From: Escherichia coli
Lineage (GTDB): Bacteria; Pseudomonadota; Gammaproteobacteria; Enterobacterales; Enterobacteriaceae
Assembly: GCF_003018255.1 (NCBI RefSeq)
Contig: NZ_CP027440.1
DNA length: 64,000 nt
Strand: one strand, 5' to 3'
The stretch's first letter is position 1, and the number at the start of each line of letters is the position of its first letter. Below the pieces are notes generated by a model that was not told the DNA's origin, ran no database searches, and saw only the letters and a list, made by a program, of their open reading frames with translations. A program made the translations under genes and the position numbers. Of the stretch, positions 2,337 to 53,095 are shown one piece after another.

Positions 2337-2423
2337 GGTGCGAGGGGGGGGACTTGAACCCCCACGTCCGTAAGGACACTAACACCTGAAGCTAGCGCGT
2401 CTACCAATTCCGCCACCTTCGCA
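2337..2423 (-). tRNA. leuQ: tRNA-Leu (CAG), copy 1 of 3
   Basis: 87-nt reverse complement of the E. coli tRNA-Leu1 sequence including encoded CCA; anticodon CAG. Confidence 0.93.
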
Positions 2424-2457
2424 CAGTCATCTTACTTTTTTTGATATTGCCTCGTTT

Positions 2458-2544
2458 GGTGCGAGGGGGGGGACTTGAACCCCCACGTCCGTAAGAACAC
2501 TAACACCTGAAGCTAGCGCGTCTACCAATTCCGCCACCTTCGCC
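2458..2544 (-). tRNA. leuP: tRNA-Leu (CAG), copy 2 of 3, one substitution in the variable arm relative to copies 1 and 3
   Basis: Same 87-nt tRNA sequence; differs at position 2497 (a instead of g on the + strand). Confidence 0.9.
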
Positions 2545-2572
2545 CAGTGCGAGCAATATCAACGTGGTTTTT

Positions 2573-2659
2573 GGTGCGAGGGGGGGGACTTGAACCCCCA
2601 CGTCCGTAAGGACACTAACACCTGAAGCTAGCGCGTCTACCAATTCCGCCACCTTCGCA
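2573..2659 (-). tRNA. leuV: tRNA-Leu (CAG), copy 3 of 3
   Basis: Identical to copy 1; tandem array with short spacers. Confidence 0.93.
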
Positions 2660-2857: not shown

Positions 2858-3889
2858 TCAACCTTTCTTCGCCTGGCGGGTCATAATGGCGCGATACACC
2901 TTGAAGCGCCCGGTTTGCGCGATCACTTCGTGGAAGCCAAATGTCTCATCCAGCACGTCCGGATAAGGCAGGAAGGCGTTCGCTACAATTCGCAGCTCGC
3001 CGCCGCTATTAAGATGACGCACCGCGCCGCGAATCAGCGTTTGCGCGGCATCCAGGCTGGTTTGCATCCCATCGTGGAACGGCGGGTTGGAGATGATCAT
3101 ATCAAAACGACCTTTCACCTCGGAAAAGACGTTACTGGCAAAGACTTCACCTTCAACACCGTTGGCCGCAAGTGTTGCGCGGCTGGCTTCTACCGCTGGT
3201 GCAGAGACATCGCACAGAGTGAGACGAATTTTCGGCGAATGGCGCGCAAAGGCAACCGAAAGTACGCCCGCGCCACAGCCGACATCCAGCACTTTACCTT
3301 TCGTGTGCGGGGTTAACGTCGAGAGCAGCAACTGGCTACCGACATCCAGACCGTCGCGGCTAAACACGCCAGGCAGCGTTTTGACCGTCAGGCCATCGAC
3401 GCTGTATTCGCCCCAGAATTTATCGGCATCAAATACTGGCTGTTTTTCCAGACGACCAAAATAGAGGCCACAGCGACGAGCGCTGTCCATTTTATTCAAC
3501 GGCGCATAATCTGACAGCATCTGCTCGGCGCTGCGCACGCCGCTGCGGTTCTCGCCAACGACAAAAATATCCGTGCCCACTGGCAGCAGAGAAAGTAAAT
3601 TCATCAACTGGAACTGGGCTTCCGGTTTGTTCTTCGGCCAGTAGTAAATCAGCGTATCGCAATCTGCGACATCATCCGCCGTGGCGACCAGACTAAAACG
3701 GGCGTTATCCCCCATCTGGCGGCTTAACACCTGCCAGTGGTGGAATTGCTGGGTATGAGCACGGCTGGCCGCGGTATCTAAACGCGCGGGCAGGTCATCC
3801 TGTAAGTCTCCGGCAAAAAGAATACGGCTTTGTTCGAAATCATCACTGTGACGCAGCAAGACTTCACTTGCCGGGGTAAATGCAGACAT
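2858..3889 (-). CDS. rsmC: 16S rRNA (guanine1207-N2)-methyltransferase RsmC
   Basis: 343-aa ORF with SAM-binding motif ([11 protein letters not shown]) and NPPFH catalytic motif; synteny. Confidence 0.9.
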
Positions 3890-3991
3890 GGAATGCTCCT
3901 CAATTAATACTGGCGGCGATTATAGCCATATGTTGGCGCGGTATCGACGAATTTGCTATATTTGCGCCCCTGACAACAGGAGCGATTCGCT

Positions 3992-4405
3992 ATGACATCC
4001 CGACGAGACTGGCAGTTACAGCAACTGGGCATTACCCAGTGGTCGCTGCGTCGCCCTGGCGCGTTGCAGGGGGAGATTGCCATTGCGATCCCGGCACACG
4101 TCCGTCTGGTGATGGTGGCAAACGATCTTCCCGCCCTGACCGATCCTATAGTGAGCGATGTTCTGCGCGCGTTAACCGTCAGCCCCGATCAAGTGCTGCA
4201 ACTGACGCCAGAAAAAATCGCGATGCTGCCGCAAGGCAGTCGCTGCAACAGCTGGCGGTTGGGTACTGACGAACCGCTATCACTGGAAGGCGCTCAGGTG
4301 GCATCACCGGCGCTCACCGAATTACGGGCAAACCCAACGGCACGCGCCGCGTTATGGCAACAAATTTGCACATATGAACACGATTTCTTCCCTCGAAACG
4401 ACTGA
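3992..4405 (+). CDS. holD: DNA polymerase III subunit psi
   Basis: 137-aa ORF, expected length; 3' end overlaps rimI as in E. coli. Confidence 0.88.
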   Translation: MTSRRDWQLQQLGITQWSLRRPGALQGEIAIAIPAHVRLVMVANDLPALTDPIVSDVLRALTVSPDQVLQLTPEKIAMLPQGSRCNSWRLGTDEPLSLEGAQVASPALTELRANPTARAALWQQICTYEHDFFPRND

Positions 4406-4820
4406 TTTACCAGCGGCTTACCACATTGAACAACGCGCCCACGCCTTTCCGTGGAGTGAAAAAACCTTTGCCAGCAACCAGGGCGAGCGTTATCTCAACT
4501 TTCAGTTAACGCAAAACGGCAAAATGGCGGCGTTTGCGATTACGCAAGTGGTGCTGGATGAAGCTACATTGTTCAATATTGCGGTCGATCCTGACTATCA
4601 GCGTCAGGGATTGGGAAGGGCGCTGCTGGAACATCTGATCGACGAACTGGAAAAACGCGGCGTGGCGACGCTATGGCTGGAAGTCCGTGCTTCAAACGCT
4701 GCCGCCATTGCCCTGTACGAAAGTTTAGGCTTTAACGAGGCGACAATTCGCCGCAATTACTACCCCACCACGGACGGTCGCGAAGACGCCATCATCATGG
4801 CGTTGCCAATCAGTATGTAA
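4374..4820 (+). CDS. rimI: Ribosomal protein S18 alanine N-acetyltransferase (GNAT)
   Basis: 148-aa ORF with GNAT acetyl-CoA motif ([10 protein letters not shown]); overlaps holD. Confidence 0.9.
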
Positions 4821-4834
4821 GACAAGGTGGAATA

Positions 4835-5512
4835 ATGAAGTGGGACTGGATTTTCTTTGATGCCGATGAAACGCTGTTTACCTTTGACTCATTCACCGGC
4901 TTGCAGCGGATGTTTCTTGATTACAGCGTCACCTTTACCGCTGAAGATTTTCAGGACTATCAGGCCGTTAACAAGCCACTGTGGGTGGATTATCAAAACG
5001 GCGCGATCACTTCATTACAGCTTCAGCACGGGCGGTTTGAGAGCTGGGCCGAACGGCTGAACGTCGAGCCGGGTAAACTCAACGAAGCCTTTATTAATGC
5101 GATGGCGGAAATCTGTACGCCACTGCCGGGCGCGGTTTCTCTGCTTAACGCCATTCGTGGCAACGCTAAAATTGGCATCATCACCAACGGCTTTAGCGCC
5201 TTGCAGCAAGTGCGTCTGGAACGCACGGGCCTGCGTGATTATTTCGATTTGCTGGTGATTTCCGAAGAAGTTGGCGTTGCCAAACCGAATAAGAAAATTT
5301 TCGATTATGCGCTGGAACAGGCAGGCAATCCTGACCGTTCACGTGTGCTGATGGTTGGCGACACAGCTGAGTCCGATATTCTCGGTGGCATCAACGCCGG
5401 GCTTGCGACCTGCTGGCTGAATGCGCACAATCGCGAGCAACCAGAAGGCATCGCGCCCACCTGGACCGTTTCTTCGTTGCACGAACTGGAGCAGCTCCTG
5501 TGTAAACACTGA
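4835..5512 (+). CDS. yjjG: HAD-family pyrimidine 5'-nucleotidase YjjG
   Basis: 225-aa ORF starting with the HAD motif I (FFDADETL). Confidence 0.88.
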
Positions 5513-5602
5513 TTGCCTCCCCCCCGTTGATGGGTAAAATAGCCGCAATTTTTCGTTTTCAACAAGCGCGGCGCGATGCCGCTTACTCAAGAAGAAAGAA
5601 TT

Positions 5603-7192
5603 ATGACGTTGTCTCCTTATTTGCAAGAGGTGGCGAAGCGCCGCACTTTTGCCATTATTTCTCACCCGGACGCCGGTAAGACTACCATCACCGAGAAGGT
5701 GCTGCTGTTCGGACAGGCCATTCAGACCGCCGGTACAGTAAAAGGCCGTGGTTCCAACCAGCACGCTAAGTCGGACTGGATGGAGATGGAAAAGCAGCGT
5801 GGGATCTCCATTACTACGTCTGTGATGCAGTTTCCGTATCACGATTGCCTGGTTAACCTGCTCGACACCCCGGGGCACGAAGACTTCTCGGAAGATACCT
5901 ATCGTACCCTGACGGCGGTGGACTGCTGCCTGATGGTTATCGACGCCGCAAAAGGTGTTGAAGATCGTACCCGTAAGCTGATGGAAGTTACCCGTCTGCG
6001 CGACACGCCGATCCTCACCTTTATGAACAAACTTGACCGTGATATCCGCGACCCGATGGAGCTGCTCGATGAAGTTGAGAACGAGCTGAAAATCGGCTGC
6101 GCACCGATCACCTGGCCGATTGGCTGCGGCAAGCTGTTTAAAGGCGTTTACCACCTTTATAAAGATGAAACCTATCTCTATCAGAGCGGTAAAGGCCACA
6201 CGATTCAGGAAGTCCGCATTGTTAAAGGGCTGAATAACCCGGATCTCGACGCTGCGGTTGGTGAAGATCTGGCACAGCAGCTACGTGACGAACTGGAGCT
6301 GGTGAAAGGCGCGTCTAACGAGTTCGACAAAGAGCTGTTCCTTGCGGGCGAAATCACTCCGGTATTCTTCGGTACTGCGCTGGGTAACTTCGGCGTTGAT
6401 CATATGCTGGATGGCCTGGTGGAGTGGGCTCCTGCGCCGATGCCGCGTCAGACTGATACCCGTACCGTAGAGGCGAGCGAAGACAAATTTACCGGCTTCG
6501 TATTTAAAATTCAGGCCAACATGGACCCGAAACACCGCGACCGCGTGGCGTTTATGCGTGTGGTGTCCGGTAAATATGAAAAAGGCATGAAGCTGCGCCA
6601 GGTGCGTACTGCGAAAGATGTGGTGATCTCCGACGCGCTGACCTTTATGGCGGGTGACCGTTCGCACGTTGAAGAAGCGTATCCTGGCGATATCCTTGGT
6701 CTGCACAACCACGGCACCATTCAGATCGGCGACACCTTTACCCAGGGTGAGATGATGAAGTTCACCGGTATTCCGAACTTCGCGCCAGAACTGTTCCGTC
6801 GTATCCGCCTGAAAGATCCGCTGAAGCAAAAACAGCTGCTTAAAGGGCTGGTACAGCTTTCCGAAGAGGGCGCGGTGCAGGTGTTCCGTCCGATCTCCAA
6901 CAACGATCTGATCGTTGGTGCGGTTGGTGTGCTGCAGTTTGATGTGGTGGTAGCGCGTCTGAAGAGCGAATACAACGTTGAAGCAGTGTATGAGTCAGTC
7001 AACGTTGCCACTGCCCGCTGGGTAGAATGTGCGGACGCGAAGAAATTCGAAGAGTTCAAGCGTAAGAACGAAAGCCAACTGGCGCTTGATGGCGGCGATA
7101 ACCTCGCTTACATCGCTACCAGCATGGTCAACCTGCGCCTGGCGCAGGAACGTTATCCAGACGTTCAGTTCCACCAGACCCGCGAGCATTAA
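5603..7192 (+). CDS. prfC: Peptide chain release factor 3 (GTPase)
   Basis: 529-aa product from ATG 5603 with RBS; G1 P-loop [12 protein letters not shown] and DTPGHEDF motifs. Confidence 0.93.
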
Positions 7193-9674: not shown

Positions 9675-10450
9675 TTTGCCGTTTTATCGACACCCACTGC
9701 CATTTTGATTTCCCGCCTTTTAGTGGTGATGAAGAGGCCAGCCTGCAACGCGCGGCACAAGCGGGCGTAGGCAAGATCATTGTTCCGGCGACAGAGGCGG
9801 AAAATTTTGCCCGCGTGCAGGCGTTAGCGGAAAAATATCAACCGCTGTATGCCGCATTGGGCTTGCATCCTGGTATGTTGAAAAAACATAGCGATGTGTC
9901 TCTTGATCAGCTACAGCAGGCGCTGGAAAGGCGTCCGGCGAAGGTGGTGGCGGTGGGGGAGATCGGTCTGGATCTCTTCGGCGACGATCCGCAATTTGAG
10001 AGGCAGCAGTGGTTACTCGACGAACAACTGAAACTGGCGAAACGCTACGATCTGCCGGTGATCCTGCATTCACGGCGCACACACGACAAACTGGCGATGC
10101 ATCTTAAACGCCACGATTTGCCACGCACTGGCGTGGTTCACGGTTTTTCCGGCAGCCTGCAACAGGCCGAAAGGTTTGTACTGCTGGGCTACAAAATCGG
10201 CGTAGGCGGTACTATCACCTATCCACGCGCCAGTAAAACCCGCGATGTCATCGCAAAATTACCGCTGGCATCGTTGTTGCTGGAAACCGACGCGCCGGAT
10301 ATGCCGCTCAACGGCTTTCAGGGGCAGCCTAACCGCCCGGAACAGGCTGCGCGGGTGTTTGACGTACTTTGCGAGTTACGCCCGGAACCAGAAGATGAGA
10401 TTGCCGAAGTGTTGCTAAATAATACGTATACGTTGTTTAACGTGCCGTAG
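9671..10450 (+). CDS. yjjV: TatD-family metal-dependent hydrolase/DNase YjjV
   Basis: 259-aa ORF; N-terminal DTHCH metal-binding motif typical of the TatD family; start overlaps yjjU stop. Confidence 0.85.
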   Translation: MICRFIDTHCHFDFPPFSGDEEASLQRAAQAGVGKIIVPATEAENFARVQALAEKYQPLYAALGLHPGMLKKHSDVSLDQLQQALERRPAKVVAVGEIGLDLFGDDPQFERQQWLLDEQLKLAKRYDLPVILHSRRTHDKLAMHLKRHDLPRTGVVHGFSGSLQQAERFVLLGYKIGVGGTITYPRASKTRDVIAKLPLASLLLETDAPDMPLNGFQGQPNRPEQAARVFDVLCELRPEPEDEIAEVLLNNTYTLFNVP

Positions 10451-10670
10451 GCCGGATAAGGCGTTCACGCCGCATCCGGCAGTTGGCGCACAATGCCTGA
10501 TGCGACGCTTGACGCGTCTTATCATGCCTACAAGTCTGTGCCGAACCGTAGGCCGGATAAGGCGTTCACGCCGCATCCGGCAGCTGGCGCACAATGCCTG
10601 ATGCGACGCTTGACGCATCTTATCATGCCTACAGGTCTGTGCCGATCCGTAGGCCGTATCCGGCATGTCA
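10448..10670. repeat. BIME/REP-type intergenic repeat: about 101-bp unit in two tandem copies plus a partial third
   Basis: Unit taggccggataaggcgttcacgccgcatccggcag...gtctgtgccgaaccg recurs at about 10448 and 10549, with a partial copy at about 10649; contains the REP palindrome gccggataaggcgttcacgccgcatccggc. Confidence 0.75.
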
Positions 10671-16821: not shown

Positions 16822-17541
16822 ATGGCTACTCCACACATTAATGCAGAAATGGGCGATTTTGCTGACGTAGTTTTGATGCCAGGCGACCCGCTGCGTGCGA
16901 AGTATATTGCTGAAACTTTCCTTGAAGATGCCCGTGAAGTGAACAACGTTCGCGGTATGCTGGGCTTCACCGGTACTTATAAAGGCCGCAAAATTTCCGT
17001 AATGGGTCACGGTATGGGTATCCCGTCCTGCTCCATCTACACCAAAGAACTGATCACCGATTTCGGCGTGAAGAAAATTATCCGCGTAGGTTCCTGTGGT
17101 GCTGTTCTGCCGCACGTAAAACTGCGTGACGTCGTTATCGGTATGGGTGCCTGCACCGATTCCAAAGTTAACCGCATCCGTTTTAAAGACCATGACTTTG
17201 CCGCTATCGCTGACTTCGACATGGTGCGTAACGCGGTAGACGCGGCAAAAGCACTGGGCGTTGATGCTCGCGTTGGTAACCTGTTCTCCGCTGACCTGTT
17301 CTACTCTCCGGACGGCGAAATGTTCGACGTGATGGAAAAATACGGCATCCTCGGCGTGGAAATGGAAGCGGCTGGTATCTACGGCGTCGCTGCAGAATTT
17401 GGCGCGAAAGCCCTGACCATCTGCACCGTGTCTGACCACATCCGCACTCACGAGCAGACCACTGCCGCTGAGCGTCAGACCACCTTCAACGACATGATCA
17501 AAATCGCGCTGGAATCCGTTCTGCTGGGCGATAAAGAGTAA
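16822..17541 (+). CDS. deoD: Purine nucleoside phosphorylase DeoD-type
   Basis: 239-aa product ([28 protein letters not shown]...) from internal ATG. Confidence 0.93.
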
Positions 17542-17572
17542 TTGTGTTTTGCTGAAAGGCGATTGTCGTGTG

Positions 17573-17603
17573 AAGCCGGAGTGGGAGACTGCTCCGGCTT
17601 TTT
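17573..17603 (+). terminator. Rho-independent terminator of the deo operon
   Basis: agccggagtgggagactgctccggct hairpin followed by ttttt. Confidence 0.8.
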
Positions 17604-17701
17604 AGTATTTATTCATCAATAGCAACTGATTTATAGATTTACTATTATTTTTCATATGGATAGAAAATAAAATCCATTCAAGTATCTATTCACGAATCTA
17701 T

Positions 17702-17965
17702 TCATTTATGTTCAGCCGTCATCCAGGAAGGGCATATCAGCAACTCTGGTGGACAACCATAAATTCCTGCCATTTTGCTTTTGATGTTTGAACTAAGCCG
17801 TTCCGTCTTTTCGATCTGTTTTAGAGAATTAATGGAGATACCTAACATTTTACTTACTTCAGCAAGTGATAGTTTATGCCTGATACGCACGGCGGTTAGC
17901 CAGGATATACCCTGGCTGAACATTAAATTGATAATCTCCCGTTCCTGGTTTTCCAGATCGATCAT
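17702..17965 (-). CDS. Hypothetical 87-aa XRE/Cro-type HTH protein, strain-specific (occupies the position of yjjJ in K-12)
   Basis: ORF with RBS-like agggaagga upstream of its ATG; HTH-like segment LSLAEVSKMLGISINSLKQIE; sits in an AT-rich segment between the deoD terminator and lplA. Confidence 0.45.
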   Translation of the reverse strand: MIDLENQEREIINLMFSQGISWLTAVRIRHKLSLAEVSKMLGISINSLKQIEKTERLSSNIKSKMAGIYGCPPELLICPSWMTAEHK

Positions 17966-17996
17966 ATTTCCTTCCCTGGATATTTTAATCAGCGAG

Positions 17997-19013
17997 TTAC
18001 CTTACCGCCCCTGCCATCCACGCTGACAACTCCCGTAGCTCTTTTTCCTGTTCCGGGAAGTCAACCAGCAGCGCTTCGCACTCCTGTTGCAGCATATCCG
18101 CGCGGTACAGACAGCCTTGCAGTCGCCCGGCGAGGGCTTCCAGCGGCGCGGGGTTGAGACTGTCGGTAAACACCTGGGCGCGGGTGATATGGCCTTTTTC
18201 AACGTCGAAATGCAGTTCCACGCCGCCCCAGGTAAAGCGTTCATCCAGCAGATGCGAGAATGCCGGAGCCTGACCGAAGTTCCATTCCCAGCTACTCTGG
18301 CGGGCAAAGGTTTCGGCGAAGTTTGGCAAGTCTGGCGTTTTGTCCGGGGAGATGATTTCCGCTTCCACGCGCTCGCCATAATGGGCGAAAAAGGCCTCGG
18401 TTATGGCCTCGCAAACCTGCTCATGGGTGATCCCCGGTAGCAATTCGGTCAGATTGGTCACGCGGGAACGCACTGAGGTAATGCCTTTCGCCGCCAGTTT
18501 CTTTTTATCCGGATTGAGATAGTTTGCCAGGCGGCTAAGGTCGGAATTGAGCAGCAAAGTGCCGTGGTGGAAGCCACGATCTTTGGTTTCGCGATAGGCC
18601 GAGCCTGAGACTTTGCGATCGCCTTCGGCGGTTTTCACCACCAGATCGTTACGCCCGGAAGCTTCGGCGCTGACGCCGAGCGCGTTCAGCGCATTGAGCA
18701 CAATCGACGTGGAGATGGTTTTATCGTACTCCGGCTTGCCAGCCATAAAGGTAAAACAGGTATTGCCGAGATCGTGGAACACTGCGCCGCCACCGCTACT
18801 GCGCCGCGCCAGGCGGACGTTATCTTCTTCCATCCGCCGGGTATTACACTCTTTCCACGGGTTCTGCGCGCGACCAATCACTACCGTGTCGGCATTGCGC
18901 CAGAGAAACAGAACGCGCTGCGTAGCCGGCATCTGGCGAAAAATACACTCCTCTACCGCCAGGTTAAACCACGGGTCGTAAGAGTCAGAGATGAGCAGGC
19001 GTAATGTGGACAT
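17997..19013 (-). CDS. lplA: Lipoate-protein ligase A
   Basis: 338-aa ORF ([25 protein letters not shown]...), expected length. Confidence 0.93.
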
Positions 19014-37257: not shown

Positions 37258-37326
<69 letters not shown>

Positions 37327-37337
37327 CGCGTACAGGA

Positions 37338-37380
37338 AACACAGAAAAAAGCCCGCACCTGACAGTGCGGGCTTTTTTTT
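37338..37380 (+). terminator. thr attenuator (leader terminator)
   Basis: aaaagcccgcacctgacagtgcgggc hairpin followed by tttttttt, between thrL and thrA. Confidence 0.85.
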
Positions 37381-37406
37381 CGACCAAAGGTAACGAGGTA
37401 ACAACC

Positions 37407-51035: not shown

Positions 51036-51123
51036 TCGCCCTATAAACGGGTAATTATACTGACACGGGCGAAGGGGAATTTCCTCTCCGCCCGTGCATT
51101 CATCTAGGGGCAATTTAAAAAAG
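51036..51123 (+). ncRNA. tpke11: Possible tpke11 small RNA (dnaK-dnaJ intergenic region)
   Basis: Positional analogy only: K-12 annotates a small RNA filling the dnaK-dnaJ spacer; region contains a hairpin cgggcgaaggggaatttcctctccgcccg. Confidence 0.3.
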
Positions 51124-52357: not shown

Positions 52358-52510
52358 TTACTCGGATTCGTAAGCCGTGAAAACAGCAACCTCCGTCTGG
52401 CCAGTTCGGATGTGAACCTCACAGAGGTCTTTTCTCGTTACCAGCGCCGCCACTACGGCGGTGATACAGATGACGATCAGGGCGACAATCATCGCCTTAG
52501 GCTGCTTCAT
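52358..52510 (-). CDS. hokC: Type I toxin HokC (Gef), Hok/Gef family membrane toxin
   Basis: 50-aa ORF MKQPKAMIVALIVICITAVVAALVTRKDLCEVHIRTGQTEVAVFTAYESE. Confidence 0.85.
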   Translation of the reverse strand: MKQPKAMIVALIVICITAVVAALVTRKDLCEVHIRTGQTEVAVFTAYESE

Positions 52511-52567
52511 TGCTCTCTTCTCCTTGACCTTACGGTCAGTAAGAGGCACTCTACATGTGTTCTGCAT
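52358..52567 (-). CDS. mokC: Overlapping regulatory ORF MokC (same frame as hokC, N-terminally extended)
   Basis: 69-codon in-frame extension upstream of hokC, as in hok/mok/sok loci. Confidence 0.6.
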   Translation of the reverse strand: MQNTCRVPLTDRKVKEKRAMKQPKAMIVALIVICITAVVAALVTRKDLCEVHIRTGQTEVAVFTAYESE

Positions 52568-52613
52568 ATAGGGGGCCTCGGGTTGATAGTAAAATATCAC
52601 TCGGGGCTTTTCT
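52559..52613 (+). ncRNA. sokC: Possible SokC antisense RNA (antitoxin of hokC)
   Basis: Positional inference from the K-12 arrangement, where sokC overlaps the mokC start in antisense; no independent sequence signal checked. Confidence 0.3.
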
Positions 52614-53095
52614 CTATCTGCCGTTCAGCTAATGCCTGAGACAGACAGCCTCAAGCACCCGCCGCTATTATATCGCTCTCTTTAACCCATTCTGTTTTAT
52701 CGATTCTAATCCTGAAGACGCCTCGCATTTTTATGGCGTAATTTTTTAATGATTTAATTATTTAACTTTAATTTATCTCTTCATCGCAATTATTGACGAC
52801 AAACTGGATTATTTTTGAAGTATTGGCCTAACAAACATCGCCGACTGACAACAAATTAATTATTACTTTTCCTAATTAATCCCTCAGAAATCCTGACCTT
52901 AAGCTATGATTATCAGGGCTTAGGGTCACACGTCAGCGCTTACAGCCGTCAAAAACTCATCTCATCACTGATGACGCAAATCCTTCAATGCCTCGTAAAA
53001 AGCGAATTATTCCTACACTATAATCTGATTTTAACGATGATTCGTGCGGGGTAAGATAGTAAAAACGATCTATTCACCTGAAAGAGAAATAAAAA

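What the first reader, a model, noticed from the sequence alone, without database searches (positions are those of the whole stretch)
17542..17996. yjjJ position is occupied by a short AT-rich segment with an orphan 87-aa HTH ORF
Between the deoD terminator and lplA there is only about 455 bp, whereas K-12 (as I recall) carries the roughly 1.3-kb HipA-like kinase gene yjjJ here. The segment holds an 87-aa ORF on the lplA strand (17702..17965) with a plausible RBS and an XRE/Cro-like HTH. It is preceded by an AT-rich tract with reiterated tattcat / ctattca motifs (about 17610..17710). It could be a stand-alone regulator, a remnant of a larger module, or a strain-specific islet.
Basis: partly seen in the sequence, partly recalled or inferred. 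Interest (0 to 1): 0.45.

Follow-up and report, generated by a model that had tools for sequence, protein, structure and literature searches.

The report
Orphan antitoxin-like regulator replacing hipH
Where laboratory E. coli K-12 carries the toxin-kinase gene hipH (yjjJ), this strain, like three quarters of sequenced E. coli, carries a small DNA-binding protein gene descended from a toxin-antitoxin module, next to the leftover hipH control region; it is real but an ordinary, already annotated gene polymorphism.

Summary
The deoD-lplA interval is 455 bp, AT-rich (22% GC at 17600-17699), and holds an intact 87-aa ORF (17702-17965, minus strand) with a ribosome-binding site 31 nt after lplA. It is not strain-specific. 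Of 5426 complete E. coli genomes, 4073 carry this segment and 1348 carry hipH, with almost no genome left over.

The interval has two parts.
- **17602-17710** is the conserved hipH 5' region: one distal and three 12-bp-phased TCTATTCA sites, plus the relic hipH ATG. The same array precedes hipH in seven genera and is absent from empty deoD-lplA junctions.
- **The ORF** is a real gene. Orthologs of 86-87 aa sit at this same locus in Escherichia, Salmonella, Superficieibacter and others, with dN/dS of 0.14-0.38. Its fold is XRE/Cro-type.

Its nearest relatives (hhalign probability 99.2%) are the C-terminal DNA-binding domains of phage and plasmid antitoxins encoded after RelE/ParE toxins. The toxin-binding N-terminus and the toxin are both missing here.

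A Q50* nonsense allele is present in 1690 E. coli genomes, so the gene is dispensable. Its target is unknown. Interest is modest.

The parts
16822..17541 (+). deoD (purine nucleoside phosphorylase), left flank
   Evidence: ORF list. 98-99% identical to K-12 deoD.
17572..17601 (+). deoD intrinsic terminator hairpin followed by a T run. Shared by HTH, hipH and E. whittamii empty alleles.
   Evidence: Terminator scan, inverted repeat I10, alignment A1, gap sequences.
17608..17615 (+). Distal TTTATTCA site of the hipH 5' region (TCTATTCA in K-12)
   Evidence: Present at the same position just after the deoD terminator in all 7 hipH alleles and in the full-array HTH alleles (window, L003, L015, L021).
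17616..17672 (+). AT-rich spacer with a conserved TTTCA element and a weakened -35-like element (TATTAT here, where hipH alleles have TTTACA/TTGACA). This is the presumed hipH promoter core.
   Evidence: Cross-genus alignment. GC is 22%. Only about 44% identical to K-12 in this stretch. No sigma-70 consensus hit on the + strand.
17673..17704 (+). Three TC(C/T)ATTCA repeats at a 12-bp period (17673, 17685, 17697). They lie immediately 5' of the hipH start codon in hipH alleles.
   Evidence: Pattern search: 2 hits, 0 expected. The repeat block with the ATG (17669-17710) is about 95% identical to K-12. There are 3-4 motif copies in every intact hipH gap and 2-4 in the HTH gaps that keep the array, and none in the 43-100 bp empty gaps.
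17708..17710 (+). Relic ATG at the position of the hipH start codon. Homology to the K-12 allele ends here.
   Evidence: Alignment A1. No similarity beyond this point to hipH 5' coding sequence.
17702..17965 (-). 87-aa XRE-family HTH gene, a solo N-terminally truncated antitoxin homolog. Its stop codon TGA is the complement of TCA inside the last repeat.
   Evidence: ORF. Pfam HTH_3. AF2 pLDDT 89.5. Foldseek matches to CylR2, DdrO, SinR and 434 Cro. Orthologs at the same locus in other genera. dN/dS 0.14-0.38. hhalign probability 99.2% to RelE/ParE-linked antitoxins.
17966..17996 (-). 31-nt lplA-HTH spacer with a Shine-Dalgarno-like GGAAGGA at about 17969-17976. No terminator between lplA and the ORF.
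   Evidence: Sequence. Terminator scan found none on the minus strand.
17997..19013 (-). lplA (lipoate-protein ligase A), right flank. The HTH gene lies directly downstream on the same strand.
   Evidence: ORF list and annotation of identical loci.
17711..17996 (.). The 286-bp segment that stands in place of the 1332-bp hipH coding sequence of K-12
   Evidence: Alignments A1 and A2. The segment is found in 4073 genomes and hipH in 1348 of 5426, and the two are mutually exclusive.

Best explanation
The interval is the common 'HTH allele' of a two-state locus and is a mosaic of two relics.

(1) 17602-17710 is the 5' control region of the toxin-kinase gene hipH. It comprises a distal TCTATTCA site, an AT-rich promoter-like stretch, three 12-bp-phased TCTATTCA sites and the start ATG. 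It was left behind when the hipH coding sequence was replaced.

(2) The replacement, 17711-17996, carries an 87-aa gene on the lplA strand. The gene descends from the C-terminal XRE DNA-binding domain of an antitoxin from a toxin-first RelE/ParE type II toxin-antitoxin module of phage or plasmid origin. The toxin gene and the roughly 45-aa toxin-neutralising Phd/RelB-like N-terminus are gone.

Shown:
- The anatomy and the allele census.
- The homology to the antitoxins and the XRE fold.
- Purifying selection across genera.
- The strict lplA-HTH-deoD location of every family member found.

Inferred:
- The protein is made as the last cistron of the lplA transcript (31-nt gap, Shine-Dalgarno sequence, no terminator).
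- It acts as a small dimeric sequence-specific DNA-binding repressor and cannot neutralise a toxin.
- Its operator and regulon are unknown.
- It is non-essential, since a nonsense allele is widespread in E. coli.
For: Allele census:
- hipH is in 1348 and the 286-bp HTH segment in 4073 of 5426 complete E. coli genomes, summing to 5421.
- Homology between the two alleles is confined to the deoD terminator, the repeat block and lplA.

The repeat array belongs to hipH:
- In 80 enterobacterial lplA loci, all 6 intact hipH gaps carry 3-4 TCTATTCA-type motifs in one shared architecture, and the three hipH remnants keep 1-2.
- The 43-100 bp empty gaps carry none.

The ORF is a real gene:
- Orthologs of 86-87 aa lie directly after lplA in another Escherichia lineage, in Superficieibacter, Salmonella, two unnamed Enterobacteriaceae and an unidentified metagenome contig. 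Klebsiella has a truncated copy.
- dN/dS is 0.14-0.38, with Fisher p from 0.035 down to 5e-10.

Fold:
- AF2 pLDDT is 89.5. The model has a canonical five-helix XRE core plus an extra N-terminal helix.
- Foldseek matches CylR2, DdrO, SinR, P22 c2 and 434 Cro at 1.5-2 A.

Antitoxin origin:
- The best hits outside the locus are 102-133-aa phage and plasmid regulators.
- 5 of 6 inspected lie directly after a PF05016 RelE/ParE toxin gene.
- Profile-profile probability is 99.2%, E 3e-19, over 69 columns that map to the antitoxins' C-terminal half.
- No toxin homolog was found in any of the loci.
Against: - No expression data were available, so co-transcription with lplA and translation are inferred only.
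- 1690 E. coli genomes (about 41% of HTH-allele genomes) carry an exact Q50* nonsense allele, annotated as a pseudogene. Frameshifted and truncated products are also common in databases. Selection in E. coli is therefore weak or lineage-specific.
- The order of events (hipH first, then replacement) is inferred from the repeats' constant association with hipH and their loss in two HTH lineages. It was not shown by a dated phylogeny.
- No full toxin-antitoxin module was found at this locus in any genome, so the intermediate state is hypothetical.
- No operator could be identified. The related modules use ATAAG..CTTAT palindromes that are not present here.
Confidence: 0.7

Rival explanations
1. 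A decaying, functionless remnant. The ORF is a dead-end fragment of a destroyed toxin-antitoxin cassette that happens still to be open in this strain. It does nothing and is being lost.
For: - It lacks a toxin and a toxin-binding domain.
- The Q50* allele is in 1690 genomes and is annotated as a pseudogene.
- Many truncated or frameshifted versions exist.
- The Klebsiella copy is truncated next to an inserted mobile element.
- E. whittamii appears to have deleted the whole cassette.
- The Q50* allele carries two extra non-synonymous and no extra synonymous changes.
Against: - Full-length 86-87-aa ORFs persist between lineages only 40-50% identical, with saturated synonymous sites (dS 1-2) and dN/dS of 0.14-0.33. 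A neutral 264-nt AT-rich ORF would not stay open that long.
- 32 positions are invariant across the alignment, including the recognition-helix region.
- A start codon with a plausible ribosome-binding site is kept in the E. coli-type alleles.
Confidence: 0.2
2. A dedicated regulator of the leftover hipH promoter. The HTH protein binds the TCTATTCA array just beyond its own stop codon and silences or tunes the relic promoter. Unrepressed, that promoter would fire antisense through the HTH gene and lplA.
For: - The array and distal site survive in Escherichia, Superficieibacter and UBA3516 HTH alleles despite dS above 1 in the adjacent ORF.
- The stop codon lies inside the last repeat in every lineage.
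- hipH and lplA are convergent with abutting stop codons in K-12, so antisense overlap is built into the locus.
- c-di-GMP control of hipH acts at its promoter (PMC11452175).
Against: - XRE dimers normally bind palindromes, not 12-bp-phased direct repeats. The related antitoxin modules have ATAAG..CTTAT palindromes.
- Two HTH lineages (Salmonella L083 and L106) keep the gene although the array has collapsed to a single copy.
- The -35-like element is degraded in all HTH alleles.
- The array is constant with hipH, whose own N-terminal HTH is the more obvious binder (PMC8262856).
- The middle region shows no clear haplotype-specific conservation.
Confidence: 0.08
3. A chance ORF in an AT-rich spacer, with a spurious HTH resemblance.
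For: - The Pfam scores are only just above threshold (HTH_3 25.2 against 23; Sigma70_r4 25.3 against 24.1).
- The word-based homolog searches found relatives only within Enterobacteriaceae.
Against: - Orthologs occur in several genera with a conserved length.
- dN/dS is well below 1.
- The AF2 XRE fold is confident.
- hhalign probability to a defined antitoxin family is 99.2%.
Confidence: 0.01

Closest known systems
Antitoxins of toxin-first RelE/ParE (Pfam PF05016) type II toxin-antitoxin modules with a Phd/RelB-like N-terminus and an XRE HTH C-terminus. Examples: Pasteurella phage Pmp14 gp33, Enterobacteria phage PPyecE_EH1910 gene 290, Leclercia pZ96-1_2 WP_225988006.
   Same: - The DNA-binding domain is homologous, including the helix that precedes the canonical XRE core and the A-x-I-Y-x-C-x-P-x-x-L motif.
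- Identity is 30-38% and hhalign probability 99.2%.
   Different: - It lacks the roughly 45-residue toxin-neutralising N-terminus.
- No toxin gene is adjacent or anywhere in the locus.
- It has a unique 10-residue C-terminal tail (CPSWMTAEHK).
- It is chromosomal, fixed at one locus behind lplA, and has no promoter/operator of the ATAAG..CTTAT type.
hipH (yjjJ) locus of E. coli K-12: a monocistronic HipA-family Ser/Thr kinase toxin with its own N-terminal HTH (PMC8262856, PMC9948734, PMC11452175)
   Same: - Same chromosomal slot between deoD and lplA.
- Same deoD terminator.
- Same distal-plus-triple TCTATTCA array, ending at the same ATG.
   Different: - The kinase gene is entirely absent.
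- The 87-aa protein has no similarity to HipH, including its HTH.
- It is encoded on the opposite strand.
HipB, the XRE antitoxin of hipBA, which is reported to rescue YjjJ toxicity (PMC9948734)
   Same: A small (88 aa against 87 aa) XRE-type HTH protein linked by context to a Hip-family toxin locus.
   Different: - It does not match the HipB family model (no hit at E<=0.1).
- It has no adjacent hipA or hipH.
- Its nearest relatives pair with RelE/ParE toxins, not Hip kinases.
Small XRE repressors such as CylR2, 434 Cro, P22 c2, the SinR N-terminal domain and restriction-modification C-proteins
   Same: Same five-helix fold, 53-56 residues at 1.4-2.1 A. PDB sequence hit to CylR2 at E 0.008.
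   Different: It has an extra N-terminal helix and a C-terminal tail. Its operator and regulon are unknown, and it is not part of a phage immunity or restriction-modification unit.

Membership tests
XRE/Cro-C1 HTH (Pfam PF01381 HTH_3) | Profile match above the curated gathering score | tested here: met
   HTH_3 scores 25.2 bits against a cut-off of 23, over residues 25-76.
XRE/Cro-C1 HTH (Pfam PF01381 HTH_3) | Five-helix bundle with helix-turn-helix, superposable on solved members | tested here: met
   AF2 pLDDT 89.5. Foldseek matches to CylR2, DdrO, SinR, 434 Cro and P22 c2 at rmsd 1.4-2.1 A over 53-56 residues, probability 1.00.
XRE/Cro-C1 HTH (Pfam PF01381 HTH_3) | Sequence-specific DNA binding | not testable with these tools
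   Needs EMSA, ChIP or DAP-seq.
Type II toxin-antitoxin antitoxin (RelE/ParE-associated, Phd/RelB-like N-terminus plus XRE C-terminus) | DNA-binding domain homologous to family members | tested here: met
   hhalign A3 against A5: probability 99.2%, E 3.2e-19, 38% identity over 69 columns. tblastn E from 2e-6 to 1e-4. Exhaustive hmmsearch hits at 6e-10 and weaker with the same architecture.
Type II toxin-antitoxin antitoxin (RelE/ParE-associated, Phd/RelB-like N-terminus plus XRE C-terminus) | Adjacent cognate toxin gene in the same operon | tested here: not met
   Only 31 nt separate lplA and the ORF. tblastn with four toxins found nothing in the window or in any related locus. The relatives do have a PF05016 toxin upstream.
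Type II toxin-antitoxin antitoxin (RelE/ParE-associated, Phd/RelB-like N-terminus plus XRE C-terminus) | Toxin-neutralising N-terminal domain | tested here: not met
   Alignment A4 shows the 87-aa protein begins where the antitoxins' linker ends (residue about 46-50), so the Phd/RelB-like segment is absent.
Type II toxin-antitoxin antitoxin (RelE/ParE-associated, Phd/RelB-like N-terminus plus XRE C-terminus) | Autoregulatory palindromic operator upstream of the operon | tested here: not met
   The relatives carry ATAAG..CTTAT palindromes at their promoters. No comparable element lies upstream of the ORF here, where the upstream sequence is the end of lplA.
HipB (antitoxin of hipBA) | Match to the HipB family model NF007271 and an adjacent hipA-family kinase gene | tested here: not met
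   No NCBIfam HipB hit at E<=0.1. No hipA or hipH in this allele.
HipH/YjjJ kinase or a remnant of it | Sequence similarity to HipH (NF007297) on either strand | tested here: not met
   BLASTP E>=0.2. tblastn of HipH finds nothing in HTH alleles. The sequence right of the repeats is no more similar to the hipH 5' end than shuffles are.
hipH 5' regulatory region | Position directly after the deoD terminator, one distal plus two or three proximal TCTATTCA sites at a 12-bp period, ending at the hipH ATG | tested here: met
   Same order, spacing and sequence as K-12 and six other genera. The motif pair occurs only here in 64 kb.
hipH 5' regulatory region | Promoter activity or protein binding at the repeats | not testable with these tools
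   No sigma-70 consensus hit on the + strand. The only experimental datum is that c-di-GMP control of hipH maps to its promoter region (PMC11452175).
Sigma-70 region 4 (PF04545) | Region 4 as part of a sigma factor that also has region 2 | tested here: not met
   The Pfam score is nominally above cut-off (25.3 against 24.1). However, the protein is 87 aa with an XRE fold, and the NCBIfam sigma models score far below their cut-offs.

The most novel reading that the evidence does not exclude
hipH and the antitoxin-derived HTH gene are alternative cassettes of a long-lived either/or polymorphism. It spans several enterobacterial genera and is maintained by selection rather than drift. The HTH protein has been recruited to act on the shared TCTATTCA control region, or to counter HipH-type or RelE/ParE-type toxins arriving on mobile elements. 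Strains would then be either 'toxin-kinase' or 'repressor' types, with different persistence or phage-defence behaviour.
Probability: 0.1. Interest if true: 0.6.

Novelty: new member of a known kind. Interest (0 to 1): 0.33.

Why it matters
hipH (yjjJ) is studied in K-12 and in one uropathogenic strain as a persistence and c-di-GMP-linked toxin. The census here shows that only about 25% of complete E. coli genomes have it. About 75% carry this small regulator gene instead, and roughly 40% of those carry a nonsense version. Conclusions about hipH therefore do not transfer to most E. coli, including O157:H7, strain 536 and ATCC 25922.

The locus is also a clean natural example of three things:
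- A toxin gene swapped for an antitoxin-derived DNA-binding domain.
- A solo antitoxin fragment kept under purifying selection across genera.
- A conserved, uncharacterised operator-like array (TCTATTCA at a 12-bp period) that defines the hipH control region and could be tested directly.

None of this is surprising in kind. Orphan antitoxin homologs and hot-spot junctions between convergent genes are well known.

Tried and rejected
1. **HipH remnant or inverted copy of its HTH.** Rejected: no BLASTP or tblastn similarity, and the junction sequence is no better than shuffles.
2. **HipB-like protein.** Rejected: no match to the HipB model.
3. **Sigma-factor fragment** (Pfam Sigma70_r4 hit). Rejected on fold and length.
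4. **Known RNA element in the AT-rich tract.** No Rfam match at E<=1.
5. **Toxin gene hidden in the locus.** None found.
6. **TCTATTCA as the operator type of the related antitoxins.** Their promoters carry different palindromes.
7. **Whether the hipH control region co-diverges with the HTH gene** (haplotype-specific conservation). The identity matrix was too noisy to decide.
8. **Elevated flank divergence as a sign of ancient balanced haplotypes.** The last 150 nt of lplA are 93% identical between alleles, but another part of lplA is 94%, so there is no clear localised signal.
9. **Literature by guessed locus tags and WP accessions.** Nothing on this gene.
10. **AlphaFold-database fold search.** That library was unavailable.
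11. **The 27-codon + strand ORF starting at the relic ATG.** It is not conserved outside Escherichia, because other genera have no ATG there.

Full report
**Observation.** The window carries deoCABD on the + strand, with deoD ending at 17541. lplA lies on the - strand at 17997-19013. The 455 bp between them contain:
- the deoD terminator hairpin at 17572-17601;
- a very AT-rich tract, with GC of 22% at 17600-17699;
- one 87-codon ORF on the lplA strand at 17702-17965, whose ATG lies 31 nt after the lplA stop and is preceded by GGAAGGAAAT.

Pfam places the protein in HTH_3 at 25.2 bits against a cut-off of 23. The reiterated motif is real. TCYATTCA-N4-TCTATTCA occurs only at 17673 and 17685 in the 64-kb window, with 0 expected from shuffles. 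There is a further copy at 17608. K-12 MG1655 has the 1332-bp hipH (yjjJ) gene on the + strand in this slot, with its stop codon abutting the lplA stop codon.

**How common it is.** Megablast against 5426 complete E. coli genomes finds the whole 455 bp in 4036 of them. The 286-bp segment that replaces hipH (17711-17996) is in 4073 genomes, and hipH is in 1348. The two sum to 5421, so the states are mutually exclusive and nearly exhaustive.
- The hipH state includes the K-12 lineages and ST131 (EC958).
- The HTH state includes O157:H7, strain 536, ATCC 25922 and NCTC86.

RefSeq already annotates the ORF as a helix-turn-helix protein, WP_000566145.1. This is the majority allele, not a strain-specific islet.

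**Where the two alleles are homologous.** deoD is about 98% identical between the window and K-12. Identity in the intergenic region is only 80%. The alignment is mosaic:
- the terminator and first motif copy are conserved;
- about 52 bp (17617-17668) are scrambled;
- the block holding three motif copies and the hipH ATG (17669-17710) is about 95% identical;
- homology then stops, and it resumes at the lplA stop codon.

The sequence right of the repeats is no more similar to the 5' end of hipH than shuffled sequence is.

**Comparative survey.** One scan of species-representative genomes with LplA returned 80 enterobacterial loci. I located deoD, hipH and the HTH gene in each.
- **Empty.** In most genera (Citrobacter, Salmonella, Klebsiella, Enterobacter, Kluyvera and others) lplA and deoD converge across only 43-100 bp. 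This is the likely ancestral state.
- **hipH.** It fills the gap in E. albertii and in single species of Citrobacter, Kosakonia, Pseudocitrobacter, Leclercia and Silvania, at 60-95% amino-acid identity. Decayed hipH fragments remain in Phytobacter and two Kosakonia species, and in E. coli WB61.
- **HTH.** Homologs of the 87-aa protein fill the gap in another Escherichia lineage (86% identity), in Superficieibacter (50-51%) and in an unnamed Enterobacteriaceae genome (46-49%).
- **Other insertions.** A lipoprotein, a membrane protein, REP-associated transposases and fimbrial subunits occupy the gap elsewhere, so the junction is a general insertion hot spot.

**The motif tracks hipH.** The T[CT][TC]ATTCA motif occurs 3-4 times in every intact hipH gap, 2-4 times in the HTH gaps that keep the array, and never in the 43-100 bp empty gaps. 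In all of these the layout is the same:
- the deoD terminator;
- a distal site;
- about 50 AT-rich bp with a TTTACA-like element and a conserved TTTCA;
- two or three sites at a 12-bp period;
- then the hipH ATG.

I therefore read 17602-17710 as the hipH 5' control region. What binds the repeats is unknown. HipH's own N-terminal HTH is the obvious candidate (PMC8262856), and c-di-GMP control of hipH maps to its promoter (PMC11452175). In HTH alleles the -35-like element is consistently degraded.

**The ORF is a real gene.** All family members I could find lie in the same place, directly after lplA and before deoD:
- E. marmotae-type sequences;
- a rare Salmonella enterica allele;
- a metagenomic contig;
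- a Klebsiella copy truncated next to an inserted mobile element;
- a third subfamily only 40% identical to the window protein.

Length is conserved at 86-87 aa, with 32 invariant positions in the alignment. Nei-Gojobori dN/dS is 0.14-0.38 and synonymous sites are saturated between genera (dS 1-2). Fisher tests give p from 0.035 to 5e-10. In every lineage the stop codon TGA is the complement of the TCA in the last repeat. This points to a single origin of the junction. In two lineages (Salmonella and L106) the repeat array has collapsed to that one copy while the gene stays intact. The array is therefore not required for keeping the gene.

**What the protein is.** AlphaFold2 gives a confident model (pLDDT 89.5) with seven helices: an N-terminal helix (residues 4-18), the five-helix XRE core and a short, poorly predicted tail. 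Foldseek matches CylR2, DdrO, SinR, P22 c2, 434 Cro and restriction-modification C-proteins at 1.4-2.1 A. The PDB sequence search gives CylR2 at E 0.008.

An exhaustive profile search of 1.84 billion representative proteins finds only 76 hits at E<=1e-3. Apart from the family itself, the best are 95-133-aa proteins with the HTH at the C-terminus and a Phd/RelB-like 'LQYI.D..G.P.FV.LP' N-terminus.

tblastn against phage and plasmid collections finds the same kind of protein. In 5 of 6 inspected cases it lies directly downstream of a RelE/ParE toxin gene, Pfam PF05016 with E from 6e-10 to 5e-8. Profile-profile comparison of the two groups gives probability 99.2%, E 3e-19 and 38% identity over 69 columns. 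Those columns map to residues 54-122 of the antitoxins.

The 87-aa protein starts exactly where the antitoxins' linker ends, so it lacks the toxin-neutralising domain. No toxin homolog is present in the window or in any related locus. It is therefore a solo, N-terminally truncated antitoxin homolog. It has the DNA-binding half only, plus a 10-residue tail of its own.

**Mechanism.**
- Shown: the fold, the homology, the conservation and the position.
- Inferred: expression as the last cistron of the lplA transcript (31-nt spacer, Shine-Dalgarno sequence, no minus-strand terminator), and action as a small dimeric DNA-binding repressor-type protein that cannot neutralise a toxin.
- Unknown: its operator. 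The related modules use ATAAG..CTTAT palindromes that are absent here. 12-bp-phased direct repeats are not typical XRE targets.

**The gene is dispensable in E. coli.** An allele-specific 40-mer shows that 1690 genomes carry Q50* (TAG) and 2035 carry CAG; about 347 are undetermined. RefSeq flags the TAG allele as a pseudogene. The window's allele is intact.

**Evolutionary reading (inferred).** A hipH cassette with its repeat-bearing leader entered the empty deoD-lplA junction. In one lineage the hipH coding sequence was replaced by a RelE/ParE-antitoxin cassette, or by its remnant, in the opposite orientation. Deletion then left only the antitoxin's DNA-binding domain. Both haplotypes have since been gained, lost and probably exchanged through the conserved flanks. 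The E. whittamii 'empty' gap keeps ATTCATCAAT, the HTH-type version of the distal site, so it looks like a secondary deletion. No genome with the full toxin-antitoxin intermediate was found.

**Comparison with the known, and verdict.** It works like a small XRE repressor and meets the membership tests for that fold. It is homologous to RelE/ParE-linked antitoxins but fails three defining features of a toxin-antitoxin antitoxin: toxin partner, neutralising domain and upstream operator. It should therefore be called a solo antitoxin-derived regulator, not an antitoxin. It is not HipB-like, not a HipH remnant and not a sigma-factor fragment.

None of the three hipH papers read here mentions the alternative allele, and I found no paper on this gene. 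The finding is real and tidy, and it is useful context for hipH work, but it is ordinary in kind. Interest 0.33; novelty: new member of a known kind.

Noticed in passing
window 17148-17150 equivalent in other genomes; locus L090 392-655: A single nonsense allele (Q50*, CAG to TAG at codon 50 of the HTH gene) is present as an exact 40-mer in 1690 of 5426 complete E. coli genomes. RefSeq annotates it as a pseudogene. The window itself carries the intact allele.
   Followed up: yes
L001 3169-3266 (K-12) and L008, L009, L014, L022, L048, L066: The hipH gene of K-12 and of six other enterobacterial genera is preceded by a conserved array. It consists of one distal TCTATTCA and two or three more at a 12-bp period ending 3 nt before the ATG, with no obvious Shine-Dalgarno sequence. 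This looks like an undescribed operator or leader for hipH.
   Followed up: partly
L004 (E. whittamii), gap after lplA: The 76-bp 'empty' deoD-lplA gap keeps ATTCATCAAT, which matches the HTH-allele form of the distal site. This suggests a secondary deletion of the whole cassette rather than an ancestral empty site.
   Followed up: partly
L094 (E. coli WB61) 1501-1692; L028 Phytobacter; L041 and L019 Kosakonia: Independent decay products of hipH. In these, only the first 140 nt (the HTH-encoding end) or an internal kinase fragment survives between deoD and lplA.
   Followed up: partly
L089 (E. coli TB354) 3706-4164: An IS200C element is inserted between the deoD terminator and the hipH control region in one hipH-allele strain.
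   Followed up: no
L027, L032, L038, L053, L055, L065, L082, L011, L058-L060: The lplA-deoD junction is an insertion hot spot across Enterobacteriaceae. Different species hold a lipoprotein gene, a membrane protein, REP-associated tyrosine transposases, fimbrial subunit genes, a 406-aa secreted protein or 5-6 kb of other genes there.
   Followed up: partly
L087 (Klebsiella sp. RHBSTW-00484) 3001-6168: The Klebsiella copy of the HTH gene is cut off after 55 codons by an inserted block carrying a MerR regulator, a cation-efflux gene, signal peptidase II and an ISL3 transposase.
   Followed up: no
plasmid collection hits H160-H167 and 3 'plasmid' places: The HTH gene appears on records labelled as plasmids, but these are 0.4-4.9 Mb long. 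They are probably chromosome fragments or mislabelled replicons rather than true plasmid copies.
   Followed up: no
window 52508-52660 (-), 37262-37381 (+), 10450-10629 (+), 51046-51123 (+), 2339-2658 (-): Rfam gathering-level matches elsewhere in the window: a sok antitoxin RNA (hok/sok-type locus), the thr operon leader, two naRNA4 (REP-derived) copies, tpke11 and three tandem tRNA genes.
   Followed up: no
window 1-25000: The best match of the first 25 kb to any complete E. coli genome is only 98.7% identical, while the 455-bp interval has 100% matches. The source strain seems not to be in the collection, or the region is mosaic.
   Followed up: no
one search hits P0093, P0104, P0113, P0129, P0134: The exhaustive search also returned very long proteins (1366-5640 aa) with several weak HTH-like stretches. 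Their nature was not examined.
   Followed up: no
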